From positions 10,312-74,311 of the forward strand of contig CAUWBF010000005.1 in NCBI GenBank assembly GCA_963557785.1: a DNA stretch of 64,000 nt, given 5' to 3'. Both the position numbers and the translations under genes were made by a program. This document shows, in pieces, positions 14,640-19,469 of the stretch. The notes below the pieces were generated by a model. The model was not told the DNA's origin. It saw nothing but the letters and a program-made list of their open reading frames with translations, and searched no databases. How positions within the stretch are numbered: position 1 is the stretch's first letter; each line of letters starts with the position of its first letter. The DNA comes from an uncultured Clostridia bacterium. Lineage in GTDB: Bacteria > Bacillota > Clostridia > TANB77 > CAG-508.

Positions 14640-16400
14640 TTATTCTTTTATTAAAACTGCTTTTATTCTTCTTACACCTGATGAACTAGATTCTTCCTTC
14701 TTTATCTTTAATTTTCCAAGTTCCGCTGTATGTTTCACATGAGGTCCACCACAGATTTCTTTGCTAAAATCTCCTATTGTATATACCTTTACTCTATCTC
14801 CATATTTATTAGTAAATAAACCAATTGCACCAGATTTTTTTGCTTCATCATATGTCATTTCTTCGCATGTAACTGGTAAATCTTTTTGTATTTGTTCATT
14901 TACTAAATCTTCTACTTTTTTAATTTCTTCTGGAGTCATTTTTTGTGGATGTGTAAAGTCAAATCTTAATCTATCTACTGTAATATTAGATCCATTTTGT
15001 TTTACGTGTTCTCCCAATACTTCTCTTAAAGCTTCGTGTAAAAGGTGTGTAGCAGTATGATAAGCTGTTGTTACTTCATTTTGTTCTGCTAATCCTCCCT
15101 TAAATTTTTGTTCAGCACCTTGTCTTGATTTTTCTTGATGAGCTTTGAATAATTCATCAAATTTATTTAAATCAACTTTCATGCTATTTTCTTCTGCAAG
15201 TTCTTTTGTTACTTCTGGTGGGAATCCATAAGTATCATATAATCTAAATACTACTTCTCCTGATATTTTGTCTTGTCCTTGTTCTTTAGCTTTTTTTATT
15301 TCTTTTTCAAATTCTCTTTCACCATGTGCTAAAGTTTTTACGAATTTATCTTTTTCTTCTATAATTACATTTTTAATTGTCTCTTTATTTTTATCTAAAT
15401 CTGGATACATTTCTTTTAAGTTTTCTACGTTTAGGTCAATTAAATTTGATATTTCATCTAAGTTAATTTGTAATTTATTCATATGTCTTATCATTCTACG
15501 AATTAATCTTCTTAAAATATATCCTCTATCTATGTTACTTGGTCTTCCTCCATCGCATATAATCATCATACTAGAGCGAAGATGTTCTGCAACTACTCTT
15601 CTACTTTGTATACTATCTACTTTTTGTAATTCTTCTAATTTGTGCATTATTGGTGCAAATAATTCTGTATCATATGGTGTTTCTTTTCCTTGAAGAAGCA
15701 TTGTCATTCTTTCTAATCCAAGTCCTGTATCTACGTTTTTCTTTTCTAATTTTGTATATTTTCCGTCTTTACTTTTAAAGTATTCCATAAATACATTGTT
15801 CCATATTTCTACATATTTACCACAATCGCAAGATGGTTCACAATGGTCTGAGCATGCTGGTTTTCCTGTATCGTAGAACATTTCTGTATCTGGTCCACAT
15901 GGTCCTTCTTCTCCTGCTATCCACCAGTTATCATCTTTTCCATAAAAATATATATGGTTTTCTGGTATTCCAGCTTTTTTCCAACATTCATATGCTACAT
16001 TATCTCTTGGAGCGTCTTCGTCTCCTGCAAAACAAGTAACAGATAGTTTTTCTACTGGTATTCCTAATTCTTTAGTTAGAAAATCAAAGCTCATTTGAAT
16101 TGATTCTTCTTTGAAGTAATCTCCTAAAGACCAGTTTCCTAGCATCTCAAAATATGTTAAATGACGATTATCTCCTACTTCATCTATATCAACAGTTCTA
16201 ACACATTTTTGATAGTCTGTTAGTCTTGTTCCTTCTGGATGTTTTTCTCCTAATAAATATGGTACTAATGGTTGCATACCAGCTGTTGTAAATAATACAG
16301 ATGGATCATTTTCTGGTATTAATGGTGCACTTGGTATTATTTTATGTCCATGATTTTCAAAAAATTTCAAATATTTATTTCTTATCTCTATAGCTTTCAT
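14640..16400 (-). CDS. alaS: Alanine--tRNA ligase-like, short form (586 aa) lacking the C-Ala domain and part of the editing domain
   Basis: N-terminal class II AlaRS catalytic core (FTTAGMQP, WSLGDYF, CGPDTE, EIWNNVFMEY, GLGLERM). Retains editing-site zinc motifs HTATHLLH and CGGPHV. Ends about 290 aa short of canonical 870-880 aa bacterial AlaRS. Confidence 0.8.
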   Translation of the reverse strand: MKAIEIRNKYLKFFENHGHKIIPSAPLIPENDPSVLFTTAGMQPLVPYLLGEKHPEGTRLTDYQKCVRTVDIDEVGDNRHLTYFEMLGNWSLGDYFKEESIQMSFDFLTKELGIPVEKLSVTCFAGDEDAPRDNVAYECWKKAGIPENHIYFYGKDDNWWIAGEEGPCGPDTEMFYDTGKPACSDHCEPSCDCGKYVEIWNNVFMEYFKSKDGKYTKLEKKNVDTGLGLERMTMLLQGKETPYDTELFAPIMHKLEELQKVDSIQSRRVVAEHLRSSMMIICDGGRPSNIDRGYILRRLIRRMIRHMNKLQINLDEISNLIDLNVENLKEMYPDLDKNKETIKNVIIEEKDKFVKTLAHGEREFEKEIKKAKEQGQDKISGEVVFRLYDTYGFPPEVTKELAEENSMKVDLNKFDELFKAHQEKSRQGAEQKFKGGLAEQNEVTTAYHTATHLLHEALREVLGEHVKQNGSNITVDRLRFDFTHPQKMTPEEIKKVEDLVNEQIQKDLPVTCEEMTYDEAKKSGAIGLFTNKYGDRVKVYTIGDFSKEICGGPHVKHTAELGKLKIKKEESSSSGVRRIKAVLIKE

Positions 16401-16486
16401 ATAAGATTCTCCTTTTTATTTATCTAACGATGAAATTATATTACATTATGTTAGAAAAATCAAGAAAATCCGGCTTTTAGACATAA

Positions 16487-16520
16487 AAAAATACTAGTGT
16501 ATAAAGCTAGTATTTTTTTA
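16487..16520 (-). terminator. Terminator hairpin (atactag-tgtataaag-ctagtat) between the hypothetical gene and the alaS promoter
   Basis: Inverted repeat flanked by A7/T7 right after the stop at 16524. The alaS promoter TTGATT-17-TATAAT lies just downstream. Confidence 0.55.
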
Positions 16521-16523
16521 GAA

Positions 16524-17354
16524 TTAATTGTTTAAGATTTTATCTGCTCTTTCTTTTAGGTTAGAATCTTTTTCCATATAATAATATCCTTGTTTAATTA
16601 ATTTTTTTAGTATTCCTTTTTCTTCTTCAGTTATTTTTTTACTTTCAGATACATCTAATATAATATTATATAACTCTATTTCTTTTTCTTCTAAATCTCT
16701 AGGTCCATAATTTTTTACTTTATTTATTTCAATTACTTCTTCATATACTTTTTCAAAATTATTATTATATTTTTTTAGAATTTCAATTGCTATTTCTTGA
16801 TTGTTTTTTGATTCTTCTATTATTTTTGTTTTTTCTTGCATTTCATCACTATTTGAATATAGTTTATATGAATCATCTAGTTTAAAATAATCTCTTACTG
16901 TAGTTTCTATTCTTTCATTATCTTTATTATTTCCATATATCTTTATATAATTTTCATAACATTCATTAACCATATTAATATATTGTTCATTGTCTTCTTC
17001 GTTCCTAGTCTCGTATCCTAAATCATAGTAATATTCATAAAATATTTCTGCTAATTTAACTTTTATAGGTTTATTTTTTTCTTTATCAAATTTAAGATTA
17101 TAATCTCCAATTTCATATATTATTTCCGAAAATTCTGTACCTGTATAACAATATTTATTTATTTTATATCCTAATCCTATAGCTTCCCATGATCCTCCGT
17201 CGGCATATGTCGCTTTATAATACATAGTAAATGATAATGGATTTTTTTTATTTTTTACTCTATTTTTATTTATAAAAAAAGTTATTACTACAAATATCAG
17301 CATAAATATAAATATTCCTAATATTATTTTTAATATTTTAGATAAAAACTTCAT
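16524..17354 (-). CDS. Hypothetical membrane-anchored protein (N-terminal TM, acidic/Lys-rich extracytoplasmic domain)
   Basis: 276 aa with a single N-terminal TM helix and no recognisable domain. 11 nt downstream of, and co-directional with, the preceding exported protein gene. Confidence 0.5.
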   Translation of the reverse strand: MKFLSKILKIILGIFIFMLIFVVITFFINKNRVKNKKNPLSFTMYYKATYADGGSWEAIGLGYKINKYCYTGTEFSEIIYEIGDYNLKFDKEKNKPIKVKLAEIFYEYYYDLGYETRNEEDNEQYINMVNECYENYIKIYGNNKDNERIETTVRDYFKLDDSYKLYSNSDEMQEKTKIIEESKNNQEIAIEILKKYNNNFEKVYEEVIEINKVKNYGPRDLEEKEIELYNIILDVSESKKITEEEKGILKKLIKQGYYYMEKDSNLKERADKILNN

Positions 17355-17365
17355 ATTATTCTCCT

Positions 17366-18682
17366 TTATATATCATATATTTCAGATAATACTGTACTTG
17401 TTCCATTTGCATATCTAAATGTATTATATACTATAATTTGTTTTTTTCCATCTTTATTATACATATAATATGTCCTTTGATTAGATATCTTTGAGTTTAA
17501 TATTTCATAATTCTGCACGTTGCTCGCAGTAGCTAAAGCACTATACTGGCTGGTATTTATAGTTTCTATATCGGTAGACAATATATTATTTTTTTCTTCT
17601 TCTGAAATGTATATAGTAGAGTCTACAATTTTAGTTACTTTACTATTATTTACGAATATTTTATATTGCGATTCTGTATAAAACTCACCAATCTTTCTTG
17701 TTAATACTATTGTATATGTTTCTTCATCTAACATTGTTTTATTTTCTACAATAGAATACTCATCTTTATTAAAATTATTATCATAATCACTTATAGCATC
17801 AAATATGTCCTCATAATATCCACTTGTAAATTCTATATTTGTATCTCTAATATTTGGTATTTCTTTTATTATCGTAGGATTATAACCTAAGTTTTCAACT
17901 TTTGCTTTGGATTTCATTACTTCTAAATTATATGTATTAACTCTATAATCGGACAATTTAGTATATCCTCCATCATTACTATATTGAATCAAACTTGTAA
18001 CATTTGATCCTTCTGGATATGTTTGAGCTGCTCCTGCATATTCTAAGGCATCTCTAATTGTATAATCTTGAGTTAAAGCCCAATTTAAATGTTTACAAAA
18101 ATCTTTCTGTGCACCTGATTCTACCTGATATCTCCAACCTATGGTATTTTTTGTACCCTTGCTATAAAATAATTGCGCCAAATTAGGTGTGGAAATAGTA
18201 GGTTCACTATCTCCAGTTGAAGCTGTTTCACATCCTGCTAGTATTACTAATATATTTGTATTTTTTTCCATATTGTTAAGCGATACGTATTTATATCCGT
18301 TAGATTCATACCCATCACTTTGTCTTCCATGTACTCCGCAGGCATATTCTCCTCCTTTTTGCTTATAGTTCCAATCCATAGTATATCTACTTCCATGCCC
18401 ATCTAAATATAATATATCACTTTCCCAAAGTCTTATATTATAATCCCCATATCCACCTCTTAATAACCACTCATATGTTGGTTGAGTTAATATAGCAGTA
18501 TCATATCCAAATGATTTATAACAATTCCTTGCATATTCTACATTTTCCGTTGTGTTTAGTCCAAATAGCCCACTTCTATAGTCTGTTCCTATCCCTGAAG
18601 CTTTGTTATATAATGCATACCCTTCTGTATTTAGTATTACTAAAAAAGCTATAAAAATTGAAATAAAAATTTTTTTTATCAT
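17366..18682 (-). CDS. Exported hypothetical protein with clan-CD-like (caspase/legumain/clostripain-type) His...Cys signature
   Basis: Signal peptide (MIKKIFISIFIAFLVIL). LYLDGHGS and, about 50 aa later, VILAGCETAS resemble the His-Gly/Ala-Cys catalytic dyad spacing of clan CD cysteine peptidases. Start set at the second ATG, which has an aaaggggg SD. Confidence 0.45.
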   Translation of the reverse strand: MIKKIFISIFIAFLVILNTEGYALYNKASGIGTDYRSGLFGLNTTENVEYARNCYKSFGYDTAILTQPTYEWLLRGGYGDYNIRLWESDILYLDGHGSRYTMDWNYKQKGGEYACGVHGRQSDGYESNGYKYVSLNNMEKNTNILVILAGCETASTGDSEPTISTPNLAQLFYSKGTKNTIGWRYQVESGAQKDFCKHLNWALTQDYTIRDALEYAGAAQTYPEGSNVTSLIQYSNDGGYTKLSDYRVNTYNLEVMKSKAKVENLGYNPTIIKEIPNIRDTNIEFTSGYYEDIFDAISDYDNNFNKDEYSIVENKTMLDEETYTIVLTRKIGEFYTESQYKIFVNNSKVTKIVDSTIYISEEEKNNILSTDIETINTSQYSALATASNVQNYEILNSKISNQRTYYMYNKDGKKQIIVYNTFRYANGTSTVLSEIYDI

Positions 18683-18783
18683 AATGTTTCCCCCTTTAAT
18701 TATATATATCATATTTTCATATAAAAAAACCGAAAAGTTGAAAAAGTTGAAAAAATTTATTTATATCGACTTTGTCAAAAAAA

Positions 18784-18814
18784 GACCAAAATATAATTTA
18801 ATTTTGGCCTTTTT
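18784..18814. terminator. Terminator hairpin after spoVT (gaccaaaat...attttggcc with A/T flanks)
   Basis: Imperfect 9-bp stem with A7 upstream and a T-run downstream, immediately after the spoVT stop at 18822. Confidence 0.55.
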
Positions 18815-18821
18815 TATTTTT

Positions 18822-19376
18822 TTATATTTCCATTTGACTTCCTAAAAAGTTTGCTGCTGATTGTGCAACCTTTTGCTCAACTTCTGTCATTTTAGTATTT
18901 GGTTCTTTAGACATAAGTATCACTGTTCCAATAACATCTCCATTAGATACTATTGGATATACTACTTGTGAATTAAATTTTCTTTCTTTATTATCATTTT
19001 TTATTATAGGAATAGACATATCATCATTTTCTTTACTTGTGTATACTTCTTGGTCTTCCATTACTTGTTCTAATTCAGTACTTAGGTCTTGTTCTAATAA
19101 TTCTTTTTTTAGTCCTCCAGAAATTGCTATCACTGTATCTTTATCAGTTATACAAGCTATATGTCCTGTAGTTTTTGCAAGTGTTTCTGCATATCCAACT
19201 GCAAATTCTGATAATTCGCCTATTGGTGAATATTTTTTTAATATTACTTCTCCTTCTTTATCTGTAAATATTTCAAGTGGGTCTCCTTCTTTTATTCTTA
19301 ATGTTTTTCTAATTTCTTTTGGGATAACAACTCTACCTAAATCGTCAATTCTTCTTACTACACCTGTTGCCTTCAA
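18822..19376 (-). CDS. spoVT: Stage V sporulation protein T (AbrB-family N-domain plus GAF-like C-domain)
   Basis: KATGVVRRIDDLGRVVIPKEIRKTLRIKEGDPLEIF matches SpoVT/AbrB. Length and C-terminal domain match B. subtilis SpoVT. The ORF track begins 22 codons upstream, but aaaggagg plus 7 nt precedes a TTG giving the canonical MKATG N-terminus. Confidence 0.85.
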   Translation of the reverse strand: MKATGVVRRIDDLGRVVIPKEIRKTLRIKEGDPLEIFTDKEGEVILKKYSPIGELSEFAVGYAETLAKTTGHIACITDKDTVIAISGGLKKELLEQDLSTELEQVMEDQEVYTSKENDDMSIPIIKNDNKERKFNSQVVYPIVSNGDVIGTVILMSKEPNTKMTEVEQKVAQSAANFLGSQMEI

Positions 19377-19469
19377 CTTTCTACCTCCTTTATTTGTTTT
19401 TACTATATTTTTATTATTTGTTTTAGAATGTTTTTTATTCATTATTTTGACAATTTATTTTCATGTTTC

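What the first reader, a model, noticed from the sequence alone, without database searches (positions are those of the whole stretch)
16524..18682. Two-gene operon encoding an exported clan-CD-like putative cysteine peptidase and a membrane-anchored partner of unknown function
The 438-aa exported protein has LYLDGHGS and, about 50 residues later, VILAGCETAS. Both the motifs and the spacing resemble the His-Gly / Ala-Cys catalytic dyad of caspase/legumain/clostripain-type peptidases. A beta-rich C-terminal domain of about 200 aa follows. Eleven nt downstream is a 276-aa protein with one N-terminal TM helix and an acidic, Tyr/Glu/Lys-rich ectodomain, which could be an inhibitor, immunity protein or substrate. 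Neither protein matches a family I can name. The pair has its own tandem-repeat-containing upstream region (gttgaaaaa x2).
Basis: partly seen in the sequence, partly recalled or inferred. Interest (0 to 1): 0.5.

Follow-up and report, generated by a model that had tools for sequence, protein, structure and literature searches.

The report
Secreted caspase-fold peptidase with membrane partner
A gut Clostridia genome carries a small operon for an exported enzyme with the caspase/gingipain protein-cutting fold, from a family nobody has named, and it is repeatedly found next to a small membrane-anchored protein that is probably its regulator or target.

Summary
On the minus strand, a 438-aa ORF (17366-18682) and a 276-aa ORF (16524-17354) lie 11 nt apart, between two strong terminator hairpins.

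**Peptidase (geneA)**
- It has a signal peptide, His96 and Cys151.
- It reaches no Pfam or NCBIfam cut-off; Pfam CHAT scores 21.9 bits against a cut-off of 24.
- An exhaustive HMMER search found about 160 cluster representatives with the same architecture. His is kept in 78 of 82 aligned members and Cys in 81 of 82.
- A profile alignment places the family's His and Cys on residues whose numbering matches the validated SAVED-CHAT dyad.
- Other members carry SLH, choline-binding or dockerin anchors, so the family works outside the cell.

**Partner (geneB)**
- It carries an unnamed module: a TM helix followed by PIF…DGG[TS]xEYxGLGYK.
- The module sits within 800 nt of the peptidase gene in 6-7 of 14 distinct loci and nowhere else in about 150 kb of flanking DNA.
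- It also occurs without the peptidase.

**Verdict:** a new, uncharacterised clan-CD family with a recurrent membrane partner. Enzyme activity and the partner's role (inhibitor, anchor or substrate) are inferred, not shown. Interest is moderate.

The parts
18778..18815 (-). Terminator hairpin of the upstream spoVT gene. It marks the 5' boundary of the two-gene unit.
   Evidence: 15-bp stem followed by a U-run. MFE -14.8 kcal/mol, z = -5.11 against shuffles.
18699..18752 (-). Conserved promoter/operator block: TTTCAAC TTTTTCAAC TTTTCGGTTTTTTT ... TG-A-TATATA(AT).
   Evidence: The ~30-nt core is identical, and the -10 stretch nearly so, in four copies from three locus types whose coding DNA is only 76-91 % identical. 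There is a single copy in the 64-kb window, with 0 expected by chance. Its role as a promoter is inferred.
18737..18754 (-). It lies about -41 to -58 from the inferred transcription start and is a candidate activator site.
   Evidence: Read directly from the sequence and exactly conserved in L001 (twice) and L017. Its function is inferred only.
18703..18711 (-). Candidate extended -10 element (TG-A-TATATA). No recognisable -35 hexamer.
   Evidence: Sequence reading. The generic promoter scan was not enriched over shuffles, so this rests on conservation, not on the scan.
17366..18682 (-). geneA: 438-aa exported clan-CD (CHAT/gingipain-like) peptidase homologue.
18611..18682 (-). Signal peptide of geneA (residues 1-24; MIKK + hydrophobic core + GYA|L).
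   Evidence: Sequence features. Nearly all 82 family members have the same n-h-c layout, ending just before the conserved A[FY]S[VI]GT[DN]Y start of the mature protein. The cleavage site is inferred; no SignalP run was possible.
17948..18610 (-). Caspase-hemoglobinase-fold catalytic domain (residues 25-245).
18395..18397 (-). Codon of His96 (GHG motif after strand 90-94).
   Evidence: His in 78 of 82 members. Aligned with H355 of chain 8tl0_A, which matches catalytic H375 of SAVED-CHAT at the same 20-residue offset as the Cys.
18230..18232 (-). Codon of Cys151 (AGC-x-TA motif after strand 145-149).
   Evidence: Cys in 81 of 82 members. Aligned with C402 of chain 8tl0_A, which matches catalytic C422 at the same offset.
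17369..17830 (-). C-terminal tandem alpha+beta domain (residues 285-438), possibly PepSY/FTP-like.
16524..17354 (-). geneB: 276-aa type-II membrane protein, 11 nt downstream of geneA with its own ribosome-binding site.
17271..17336 (-). Single TM helix of geneB (approximately residues 7-28).
   Evidence: Hydropathy maximum 3.28.
17070..17270 (-). Conserved juxtamembrane module of geneB (residues ~29-95): N-[KR]-V-K-N..P-[LI]-[SF]...DGG[ST]xExxGLGYK..Y...IGxY/W.
   Evidence: A profile search finds the module in 37 protein clusters. It is adjacent to distant geneA relatives. No Pfam or NCBIfam family covers it.
16527..16859 (-). C-terminal Glu/Lys-rich module of geneB (residues 166-276). In relatives it is a separate 167-aa TM protein.
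   Evidence: Alignment with P0007 (87 % identity). The gene is split in L017 by a 230-bp indel.
16484..16520 (-). Terminator hairpin ending the two-gene unit.
   Evidence: 14-bp perfect stem followed by a U-run. MFE -11.8 kcal/mol, z = -5.12.

Best explanation
geneA and geneB form one transcription unit. It has a conserved activator-type promoter and is bracketed by terminators.

**geneA.** It encodes a Sec-exported, two-domain protein. The N-terminal domain has the caspase-hemoglobinase fold of clan-CD cysteine peptidases, with the catalytic pair His96/Cys151. It is followed by a tandem alpha+beta domain that packs against it. The protein belongs to an unnamed family of about 160 clusters (at 50 % identity). 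The members I examined look like Bacillota proteins and are distant offshoots of the CHAT/gingipain branch. It most likely acts as an endopeptidase on the outer face of the membrane or in the cell wall.

**geneB.** It is a type-II membrane protein whose small beta-rich juxtamembrane module recurs next to family members. It most likely binds the peptidase at the cell surface. My preferred role is a membrane-tethered inhibitor or latency factor, by analogy with the staphopain/staphostatin, SpeB/Spi and Bfp/Bfi operons. Anchor or substrate are the next options.

**Shown:** fold, conservation and alignment of the dyad, export signals, family size, surface-anchor fusions, operon structure and recurrent gene adjacency.

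**Inferred:** catalytic activity, the signal-peptide cleavage site, the role of the C-terminal domain, physical interaction with geneB, and its direction (inhibition, anchoring or cleavage).
For: - **Sequence:**
  - Pfam CHAT scores 21.9 bits for this protein.
  - 14 of 82 members hit CHAT weakly.
  - The SLH-fused member P0013 passes the cut-off at 31.8 bits.
  - The family profile hits 8TL0 CHAT at E 0.005, with GHG on GHG and C on C.
  - Those residues match the mutationally validated dyad H375/C422 at a constant offset.
- **Conservation:** His 78/82, Cys 81/82, Gly95 81/82, Thr153 77/82.
- **Export:** signal peptides are present throughout the family. Members are fused to SLH, choline-binding, dockerin, Big_2, SH3_3 and CARDB domains.
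- **Operon:** 11-nt gap, ribosome-binding sites, and flanking hairpins with z about -5.1.
- **Partner linkage:**
  - The module gene lies 9-15 nt downstream in the window, L001, L030 and L032.
  - It is divergent in L012 and convergent in L039. L039 was not used to build the HMM and scores E 4e-32. L037 is a weak hit.
  - No module hit occurs elsewhere in about 150 kb of flanks.
Against: - No enzymatic data exist for any member.
- The window protein is below the Pfam CHAT cut-off, so membership of a named family is not established.
- I could not read the model coordinates, so His-Cys proximity rests on topology and alignment.
- Four of 82 members lack the His, and one of these also lacks the Cys (P0010, P0046, P0087, P0103). 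Non-catalytic roles therefore exist within the family.
- The partner is not obligatory.
  - 7-8 of 14 loci lack it.
  - A 91 %-identical relative has the same promoter driving the geneB homologue with no peptidase gene at all.
  - Distant module proteins sit in unrelated contexts.
- Nothing distinguishes inhibitor from anchor or substrate.
Confidence: 0.68

Rival explanations
1. geneB is merely co-transcribed and has no functional tie to the peptidase. The TM + DGG-GLGYK module would be a generic membrane-anchor module with its own role, and geneA a mobile cassette that landed between its promoter and its coding sequence.
For: - Relative to L017-L019 (91 % nt identity), the window differs by a clean ~1.3-kb indel that is exactly the geneA ORF. 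There, the same promoter block drives the geneB homologue directly.
- Module proteins P0005, P0160 and P0170 have no clan-CD neighbour.
- The module carries varied C-terminal domains, with precomputed Pfam hits PF11518, PF20251 and PF17225.
Against: - Module genes lie next to family members that are only 25-30 % identical to geneA, in several arrangements. In four loci they sit 9-15 nt downstream.
- All 8 module hits in the peptidase-centred loci lie within 800 nt of the peptidase gene, with none in about 150 kb of remaining flank.
- If placement were uniform, each hit would have about a 12 % chance of falling there, so roughly 4e-8 for all eight (my own estimate).
Confidence: 0.2
2. geneA is a processing or sorting enzyme (sheddase or transpeptidase). 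Its substrates would be the proteins that carry the N-terminal TM + DGG-GLGYK module. It would cut at the conserved juxtamembrane NRVKN..PIF stretch and release or re-attach their variable C-terminal domains. Precedents are PorU (C25) in the T9SS, GPI8 and legumain-type ligases, and the proposed site-1 cleavage by the periplasmic CHAT of DdvA.
For: - The module is an N-terminal anchor carrying variable passenger domains.
- The juxtamembrane motif D[YF]NRVKN.K.PIF is strongly conserved.
- DdvA's periplasmic CHAT has been proposed to clip a juxtamembrane linker (PMC11506125).
- Two module genes flank the peptidase gene in L030.
- Single-pass regulators (an ECF sigma with a TM protein, and XRE-HTH proteins with a TM helix) sit directly upstream in L034/35, L036 and L040.
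Against: - Many module proteins are minimal (87-93 aa) and have no passenger to release.
- No cleavage data exist.
- Half of the peptidase loci have no module gene.
- The motif could be purely structural.
Confidence: 0.12
3. geneA is a non-catalytic caspase-fold protein (a pseudo-peptidase) that serves as a binding or scaffolding protein on the cell surface.
For: - The family contains members with the dyad replaced: P0010 has Ser/Ser, P0046 has Ile, and P0087 and P0103 have Glu at the His position.
- The caspase fold is used non-catalytically elsewhere (Raptor, c-FLIP).
Against: - The window protein and its 74 % relative keep the full motifs: GHG, AGC-x-TA, and the conserved Gly32, Pro68 and Gly182.
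- His and Cys are among the handful of most conserved columns in the family.
Confidence: 0.1

Closest known systems
CHAT-domain proteases (Pfam PF12770): SAVED-CHAT (PDB 8TL0), Csx29/TPR-CHAT of Craspase, DdvA, and the related separase
   Same: - This is the only named family detected by sequence: sub-threshold for this protein, above threshold for family member P0013.
- It is the best profile-to-PDB hit, with the catalytic His and Cys aligned.
- DdvA shows that a CHAT domain can work outside the cytoplasm.
   Different: - Known CHAT proteases are cytoplasmic, or are fused to TPR, SAVED or anti-sigma modules and switched on by signals. They belong to defence or cell-cycle systems.
- This protein is a stand-alone Sec-exported enzyme with a C-terminal alpha+beta tandem domain.
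- It has no TPR or SAVED domain and no PADLOC match.
- It is below the Pfam cut-off.
Gingipains RgpB/Kgp (MEROPS family C25)
   Same: - They are secreted, surface-associated clan-CD endopeptidases with an accessory domain after the catalytic domain.
   Different: - No sequence-level match to any C25 model.
- No N-terminal prodomain, no Ig-like domain and no T9SS C-terminal domain.
- The host is a Gram-positive Clostridia rather than a Bacteroidota.
Clostripain-type C11 peptidases of gut anaerobes (clostripain, PmC11, thetapain/iotapain)
   Different: The structural similarity is much weaker than to C25 or CHAT. There is no Pfam C11 match, and the domain architecture differs.
Legumain (C13) with its C-terminal prodomain
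   Different: The C-terminal domains are unrelated: a helical LSAM domain in legumain against tandem alpha+beta units here. Autoinhibition in this protein is pure inference.
Cysteine-protease/inhibitor operons: staphopain-staphostatin, SpeB-Spi, Bacteroides Bfp-Bfi (from my own knowledge, not tested here)
   Same: A secreted cysteine peptidase gene is followed within a few nucleotides by a small beta-rich protein gene. Orphan copies of the small gene also occur.
   Different: Those peptidases belong to clan CA (C47, C10). Their inhibitors are lipocalin-like barrels or propeptide mimics. I tested no homology to geneB, and no inhibition has been shown.
FTP/PepSY propeptide of M4 peptidases and YycI (for the C-terminal domain only)

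Membership tests
Clan CD cysteine peptidases (caspase-hemoglobinase fold) | Alpha/beta/alpha sandwich with a central sheet; structural similarity to solved clan-CD enzymes | tested here: met
   [not shown]
Clan CD cysteine peptidases (caspase-hemoglobinase fold) | Catalytic His (in an H-G motif) and Cys (in an A/G-C motif), each directly after a hydrophobic beta strand, with His before Cys | tested here: met
   ILYLD-G-H96-G follows strand 90-94. LVILA-G-C151 follows strand 145-149. His is kept in 78/82 members and Cys in 81/82.
Clan CD cysteine peptidases (caspase-hemoglobinase fold) | His and Cys side chains within catalytic distance | not testable with these tools
   Model coordinates are not exposed. 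The point is inferred only from topology and from alignment onto the 8TL0 dyad.
Clan CD cysteine peptidases (caspase-hemoglobinase fold) | Cys-dependent peptide-bond hydrolysis with strict P1 specificity | not testable with these tools
   This needs biochemistry.
CHAT domain (Pfam PF12770) | Score at or above the Pfam gathering threshold (24 bits) | tested here: not met
   The window protein scores 21.9 bits, E 1.4e-4, covering only profile positions 191-262. 14 of 82 members give weak hits. One member, P0013, passes at 31.8 bits.
CHAT domain (Pfam PF12770) | Dyad equivalent to that of validated CHAT proteases | tested here: met
   The family profile against 8tl0_A gives E 0.0048. GHG aligns with G354-H355-G356 and Cys with C402. 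Both sit at a constant offset of 20 from the published H375/C422.
Gingipain family (MEROPS C25 / Pfam Peptidase_C25) | Sequence match to the C25 model | tested here: not met
   The Pfam scan at E<=10 lists only CHAT. HMMER's filters drop most matches above about 0.1, so very weak matches may not be listed.
Gingipain family (MEROPS C25 / Pfam Peptidase_C25) | N-terminal prodomain, Ig-like domain and T9SS C-terminal sorting domain | tested here: not met
   The mature protein starts directly with strand b1 after the signal peptide. The C-terminal region is a tandem alpha+beta domain. The host is a Clostridia.
Clostripain C11, legumain C13, caspase/metacaspase C14 | Sequence match to the respective Pfam models | tested here: not met
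   [not shown]
PepSY / FTP (C-terminal domain) | Sequence match to PF03413 or PF07504 | tested here: not met
   No match for residues 285-438 or for either half at E<=10.
PepSY / FTP (C-terminal domain) | Helix packed on a 3-4-stranded antiparallel sheet, in tandem | tested here: inconclusive
   [not shown]
Protease-inhibitor operon (staphostatin/Spi/Bfi type), for geneB | The small protein encoded next to the peptidase binds and inhibits it | not testable with these tools
   Only gene adjacency was shown.
Anti-phage defence systems with CHAT proteases | Match to PADLOC models, or neighbourhood with CRISPR, CBASS or gasdermin genes | tested here: not met
   No PADLOC match for geneA, geneB, P0008 or P0013. 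The neighbours are housekeeping or sporulation genes.

The most novel reading that the evidence does not exclude
The exported CHAT/gingipain-like family and the TM + 'PIF...DGG[TS]xEYxGLGYK' module proteins together form a previously unrecognised two-component surface system of Bacillota. It would be one of two things. Either it is a dedicated protease/membrane-tethered-inhibitor ('immunity') pair, or it is a sorting/shedding system in which the clan-CD enzyme cuts the conserved juxtamembrane stretch of module-bearing proteins (a Gram-positive analogue of PorU or of a site-1 protease). In the Merdicola-like lineage it may be controlled by Spo0A_C-type regulators through the TTTTTCAAC repeats.
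Probability: 0.2. Interest if true: 0.65.

Novelty: new variant of a known kind. Interest (0 to 1): 0.45.

Why it matters
Clan-CD peptidases include caspases, gingipains, legumain, separase and the CRISPR- and CBASS-linked CHAT proteases. Exported Gram-positive members outside the clostripain family are hardly known.

This work defines a family of about 160 clusters of exported, often wall-anchored, caspase-fold proteins. The locus studied is from a gut Clostridia. No family database names the group. It has a conserved catalytic pair, a new domain combination and a recurrent small membrane partner that is itself an unnamed family.

If the proteins are active, these would be new extracellular proteases of gut Clostridia. 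Possible targets are host proteins, cell-wall proteins or membrane-tethered regulators. The pair would also offer a tractable protease/partner system for studying how a clan-CD enzyme is controlled outside the cell.

If they prove inactive, or the partner unrelated, the finding reduces to a routine annotation gain.

Tried and rejected
- **Direct family and PDB sequence searches.** Searches with the single proteins gave nothing above threshold.
- **Word-indexed homologue search.** It found only two near-identical relatives of geneA. The exhaustive HMMER search was needed to find the family.
- **AF2 with a 2-sequence alignment.** It failed (pLDDT 39). It succeeded only with 82 sequences.
- **AFDB50 fold search.** This was unavailable.
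- **GTDB genome scans.**
  - The family alignments were too diverse for pattern design.
  - The single protein found no relative.
  - The promoter block gave only three chance hits in unrelated phyla.
  - The organism could therefore only be placed near Candidatus Merdicola, through its SpoVT cluster.
- **First view of the partner.** I initially concluded from L011, L012 and L014 that the partner was lineage-specific. I dropped this after translating the small neighbouring ORFs and running an HMM over all loci.
- **RNA element in the upstream region.** Rejected: no Rfam match anywhere in the window, and the repeat has no self-complementarity.
- **Generic sigma-70 and terminator scan.** It was uninformative in this 27 % GC DNA: 29 sites against 22.7 expected.
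- **Defence-system reading of the CHAT-like domain.** Rejected: no PADLOC hits, and the protein is exported.
- **Sporulation role.** A role implied by the neighbouring spoVT is not supported. The unit has its own promoter and terminator, and relatives sit in unrelated contexts.
- **Literature.** Searches for DUF6345 and for secreted CHAT or clan-CD proteins in Firmicutes found no prior description.
Full report
**1. What is in the sequence**

Both ORFs are on the minus strand.

- **geneA:** 17366-18682, 438 aa. The ATG at 18682 lies 8 nt after a GGGGG ribosome-binding site. The same 438-aa product is called in public assemblies.
- **geneB:** 16524-17354, 276 aa. It starts 11 nt after the geneA stop, behind AAGGAGAA.
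- **Boundaries:**
  - Upstream, the spoVT gene ends in a 15-bp hairpin with a U-run (18778-18815; -14.8 kcal/mol, z -5.1).
  - Downstream of geneB there is a 14-bp perfect hairpin with a U-run (16484-16520; -11.8 kcal/mol, z -5.1).
  - The pair is therefore a self-contained transcription unit. It sits between spoVT and a 586-aa AlaRS-like gene, in a 26.6 % GC genome.
- **Motifs and composition:** LYLDGH96GS and VILAGC151ETAS lie 55 residues apart, and GTTGAAAAA x2 is at 18737-18754. The composition of the geneB ectodomain is as described: K 14.2 %, E 14.2 %, Y 10.9 %, pI 5.07.
- **Organism:** the SpoVT protein falls in a 90 %-identity cluster with Candidatus Merdicola faecigallinarum, a Clostridia incertae sedis from chicken faeces. 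Identical loci occur in several metagenome assemblies.

**2. geneA is a clan-CD fold protein of an unnamed family**

*Sequence searches*
- The single sequence reaches no Pfam, NCBIfam, PADLOC or PDB threshold. The only signal is Pfam CHAT at 21.9 bits against a cut-off of 24, covering the Cys region.
- The word-indexed search found only an identical protein and a 74 % relative.
- A profile of those two, searched exhaustively against 1.84 billion cluster representatives, found 160 proteins at E<=1e-3 and 80 at E<=1e-10. Most are 400-450 aa and match end to end.

*Conservation in an 82-sequence alignment*
- The most conserved columns are Gly32 (82/82), Gly95 (81), His96 (78), Cys151 (81), Thr153 (77), Gly182 (81) and Ala216 (81).
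- The family consensus is ...SDI-x-F-L-x-GHGN ... L-x-x-F-A-G-C-x-T-A...
- Almost every member starts with a Lys-rich, hydrophobic, Ala-x-Ala-type signal peptide. This is followed within a few residues by A[FY]S[VI]GT[DN]Y, the first strand of the fold.

*Structure*
- AlphaFold2 failed with two sequences (pLDDT 39). With the 82-sequence alignment it gave pLDDT 90.5 and pTM 0.90.
- The order of elements is the clan-CD one. His comes directly after strand 90-94 and Cys directly after strand 145-149.
- Foldseek agrees.

*Alignment onto a validated dyad*
- The family profile finds 8TL0 (SAVED-CHAT) as the best PDB sequence, at E 0.0048. GHG aligns with GHG and Cys with Cys, at chain positions 355 and 402.
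- The published catalytic dyad of that enzyme is H375/C422, inactivated by H375A/C422A and about 4 A apart (bioRxiv 10.1101/2023.06.23.546230).
- Both aligned residues differ from the published numbers by the same 20 positions, so they are almost certainly the same pair.

**3. The family works outside the cell**

- Longer family members carry N-terminal SLH repeats (P0013, P0018, P0050, P0056), choline-binding repeats (P0093), a dockerin (P0064), or Big_2/SH3_3 or CARDB domains.
- P0013 passes the CHAT gathering threshold at 31.8 bits. This ties the family to CHAT at the sequence level.
- A few members have lost the dyad: P0010 has Ser/Ser, P0046 has Ile, and P0087 and P0103 have Glu at the His position. 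The window protein and its 74 % relative keep it.
- The only named member I found is a 'hypothetical protein' of Vallitalea sediminicola. Literature searches found no description of the family.

**4. The C-terminal domain**

- Residues 285-438 are modelled with high confidence (pLDDT mostly 93-97) as two helix-plus-antiparallel-sheet units. They follow a lower-confidence linker.
- No Pfam model matches this region.
- The high pTM implies that the two domains pack together. By analogy with prolegumain and with M4 propeptides, the domain might hold the enzyme latent or bind substrate. This is inference.

**5. geneB and the question of partnership**

*What geneB is made of*
- Close homologues show that geneB is a composite.
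- Residues 1-165 correspond to stand-alone 170-181-aa proteins. Residues 166-276 correspond to the C-terminal part of a separate 167-aa TM protein (P0007).
- A profile of the N-terminal part finds 37 clusters of small Bacillota proteins. They share a TM helix followed by D[YF]NRVKN.K.PIF ... DGG[TS]xEYxGLGYK[IV]I.[YF] ... IGxWF.Y, with varied C-terminal additions.
- No Pfam or NCBIfam model covers this module.

*How my view changed*
- At first the partner looked lineage-specific, because the gene tables of L011, L012 and L014 showed nothing obvious.
- Translating the small neighbours changed that. The 111-aa and 87-aa genes lying 15 and 13 nt downstream of P0015 and P0012 carry the module. So do a 181-aa gene upstream of P0015 and a 92-aa gene divergent from P0009.
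- I then fetched nine further family loci from metagenomes and ran an HMM of the module over all ORFs of at least 45 aa in all loci.

*Result*
- Of 14 distinct peptidase loci, six have a clear module gene within 800 nt: the window, L001, L012, L030 (two copies), L032 and L039. L039 was not used to build the HMM and scores E 4e-32.
- L037 has a weak hit (5.5e-4).
- No hit occurs anywhere else in the roughly 150 kb of flanking DNA.
- If placement were uniform, each hit would have about a 12 % chance of lying that close, so about 4e-8 for all eight. This is my own rough estimate.
- Loci without the module often have another small exported protein directly after the peptidase gene. Examples are a 132-aa protein with a signal peptide in L034/35 and a 145-aa lipoprotein with a weak DGGS motif in L040.

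*Evidence that the link is facultative*
- Module genes occur alone (L020, L024-L029).
- In contigs 91 % identical to the window (L017-L019), spoVT and the same promoter block are followed directly by the geneB homologue. Window 17366-18691, which is exactly geneA, is absent there.
- In those relatives geneB is also split into 181-aa and 167-aa genes by a 230-bp indel. The peptide MMKEKTAI is encoded at the end of the first gene and again within the second.
- The 74 % relative P0002 sits in a different locus (L001) with its own 177-aa partner 9 nt downstream.
- L001-type and L017-type contigs occur together in three samples. One sister genome probably holds both.

**6. Regulation**

*Promoter block*
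- The block TTTCAACTTTTTCAACTTTTCGGTTTTTTT...AAAAT[AG]TGATATATATA is conserved upstream of four genes: geneA, the L017 geneB homologue, P0002, and a second secreted-protein gene downstream in L001. The ~30-nt core is identical in all four, although the coding DNA is only 76 % identical.
- It reads as an extended -10 (TG-A-TATATA, 18703-18711) without a -35 hexamer. The TTTTTCAAC x2 repeat lies about -41 to -58 from the inferred start, the usual place for an activator.
- All of this is inferred. The generic promoter scan is uninformative in such AT-rich DNA, and no Rfam family matches.

*Regulator genes next to family members*

| Locus | Neighbouring regulator |
|---|---|
| L014, L039 | Spo0A_C-type regulators (REC + Spo0A_C in L039) |
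| L001/L002 | REC-domain protein, divergent from P0002 (cut by the contig end) |
| L020 (partner-only locus) | Spo0A_C fragment |
| L034/35 | ECF sigma factor plus a TM protein, directly upstream |
| L036, L040 | XRE-HTH proteins with a TM helix, upstream |

**7. Most likely mechanism**

1. The unit is transcribed from an activator-dependent promoter.
2. geneA is exported by Sec and its signal peptide is removed, probably after GYA24.
3. The mature protein is a clan-CD cysteine endopeptidase that uses His96/Cys151. It acts at the membrane-wall interface. Relatives are held there by SLH, choline-binding or dockerin modules.
4. geneB is inserted with its N-terminus in the cytoplasm and displays its small beta-rich module next to the membrane. 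It most likely binds the enzyme.

I favour a membrane-tethered inhibitor or latency factor, for three reasons: the tight downstream position of the gene, the existence of minimal 87-93-aa versions, and the orphan copies. All three are typical of protease-inhibitor pairs in other bacteria (staphopain/staphostatin, SpeB/Spi, Bfp/Bfi; from my own knowledge). Anchor and substrate remain open.

The substrate or sheddase reading has a precedent: the periplasmic CHAT of DdvA has been proposed to clip a juxtamembrane linker (PMC11506125). The conserved NRVKN..PIF stretch also lends it some support.

**8. Comparison, novelty and scores**

- The protein works like a clan-CD peptidase and is closest to CHAT by sequence and to gingipains by structure.
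- It fails the membership tests of every named family that I could test: Pfam CHAT below cut-off, and no C25, C11, C13 or C14 match.
- It differs from all of them in being a stand-alone exported enzyme of a Gram-positive organism, with a tandem alpha+beta C-terminal domain and a recurrent unnamed membrane partner.
- I rate it a new variant of a known kind, with interest 0.45. It is a solid and testable new family, but uncharacterised clan-CD homologues are not rare and no function has been shown.
- The most novel reading still open is a dedicated protease/partner surface system (immunity or sorting). I give that a probability of about 0.2.

Noticed in passing
window 18699-18752 (-); L001 397-450 and 2418-2470; L017 578-632: A promoter/operator block of about 55 nt contains TTTTTCAAC x2. 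Its ~30-nt core is identical upstream of four different genes in three locus types, although the coding DNA is only 76-91 % identical. In L001 it also precedes a second secreted-protein gene, which suggests a small regulon.
   Followed up: partly
window 17366-18691 versus L017 638-645 (also L018, L019): geneA is a clean presence/absence difference. In contigs 91 % identical to the window, the same promoter joins directly to the geneB homologue. Both junctions carry a TAAAGG-type ribosome-binding-site sequence.
   Followed up: partly
window 16841-16857 versus L017 1154-1383: geneB is a single 276-aa ORF here. In relatives a 230-bp indel splits it into overlapping 181-aa and 167-aa genes, the second with its own TM helix. 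The peptide MMKEKTAI is encoded at the end of the first gene and again within the second, which suggests repeat-mediated deletion or duplication.
   Followed up: partly
L014 230-892; L039 3633-4340; L001 1-348(-); L020 1428-1718(-): Spo0A_C-type regulators lie next to family members or partner genes in several loci. They include a REC + Spo0A_C paralogue, a version with a degenerate receiver domain, and a 96-aa Spo0A_C-only gene. The TTCAAC repeat loosely resembles a 0A box (TTCGACA on the opposite strand; my own comparison).
   Followed up: partly
L034 3613-4961 and L035 3613-4964; L036 90-1169; L040 3034-3513: In other family loci the peptidase gene directly follows an ECF sigma factor plus a single-pass TM protein, or an XRE-HTH protein with a TM helix. 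This might point to a role in membrane-tethered regulator signalling.
   Followed up: no
L034 6259-6657; L035 6251-6649; L040 6247-6684; L011 5701-5961; L038 257-694: Family loci that lack the DGG-GLGYK partner usually still have a small exported, lipoprotein or TM-anchored protein immediately next to the peptidase gene. The L040 and L011 proteins contain a weak DGG[ST]xxY motif.
   Followed up: no
P0010 (L014 1012-2346), P0046, P0087, P0103: Some family members have replaced the catalytic His (Ser, Ile or Glu). In P0010 the Cys is replaced too (Ser). These are probable pseudo-peptidases within the family.
   Followed up: partly
L001 2491-3249: A secreted protein of more than 253 aa is encoded downstream of the P0002 pair, behind a second copy of the promoter block. 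It has no Pfam match and is cut by the contig end.
   Followed up: no
window 14640-16400 (-): The AlaRS-like gene encodes only 586 aa (tRNA-synt_2c + tRNA_SAD). From my own knowledge, canonical bacterial AlaRS is about 870 aa, so this one apparently lacks the C-terminal part.
   Followed up: no
window 18822-19442 (-): The spoVT ORF is listed as 206 aa, but most proteins of its 90 % cluster are 184 aa. The true start is probably the internal codon before KATGVVRRIDDLGR.
   Followed up: no
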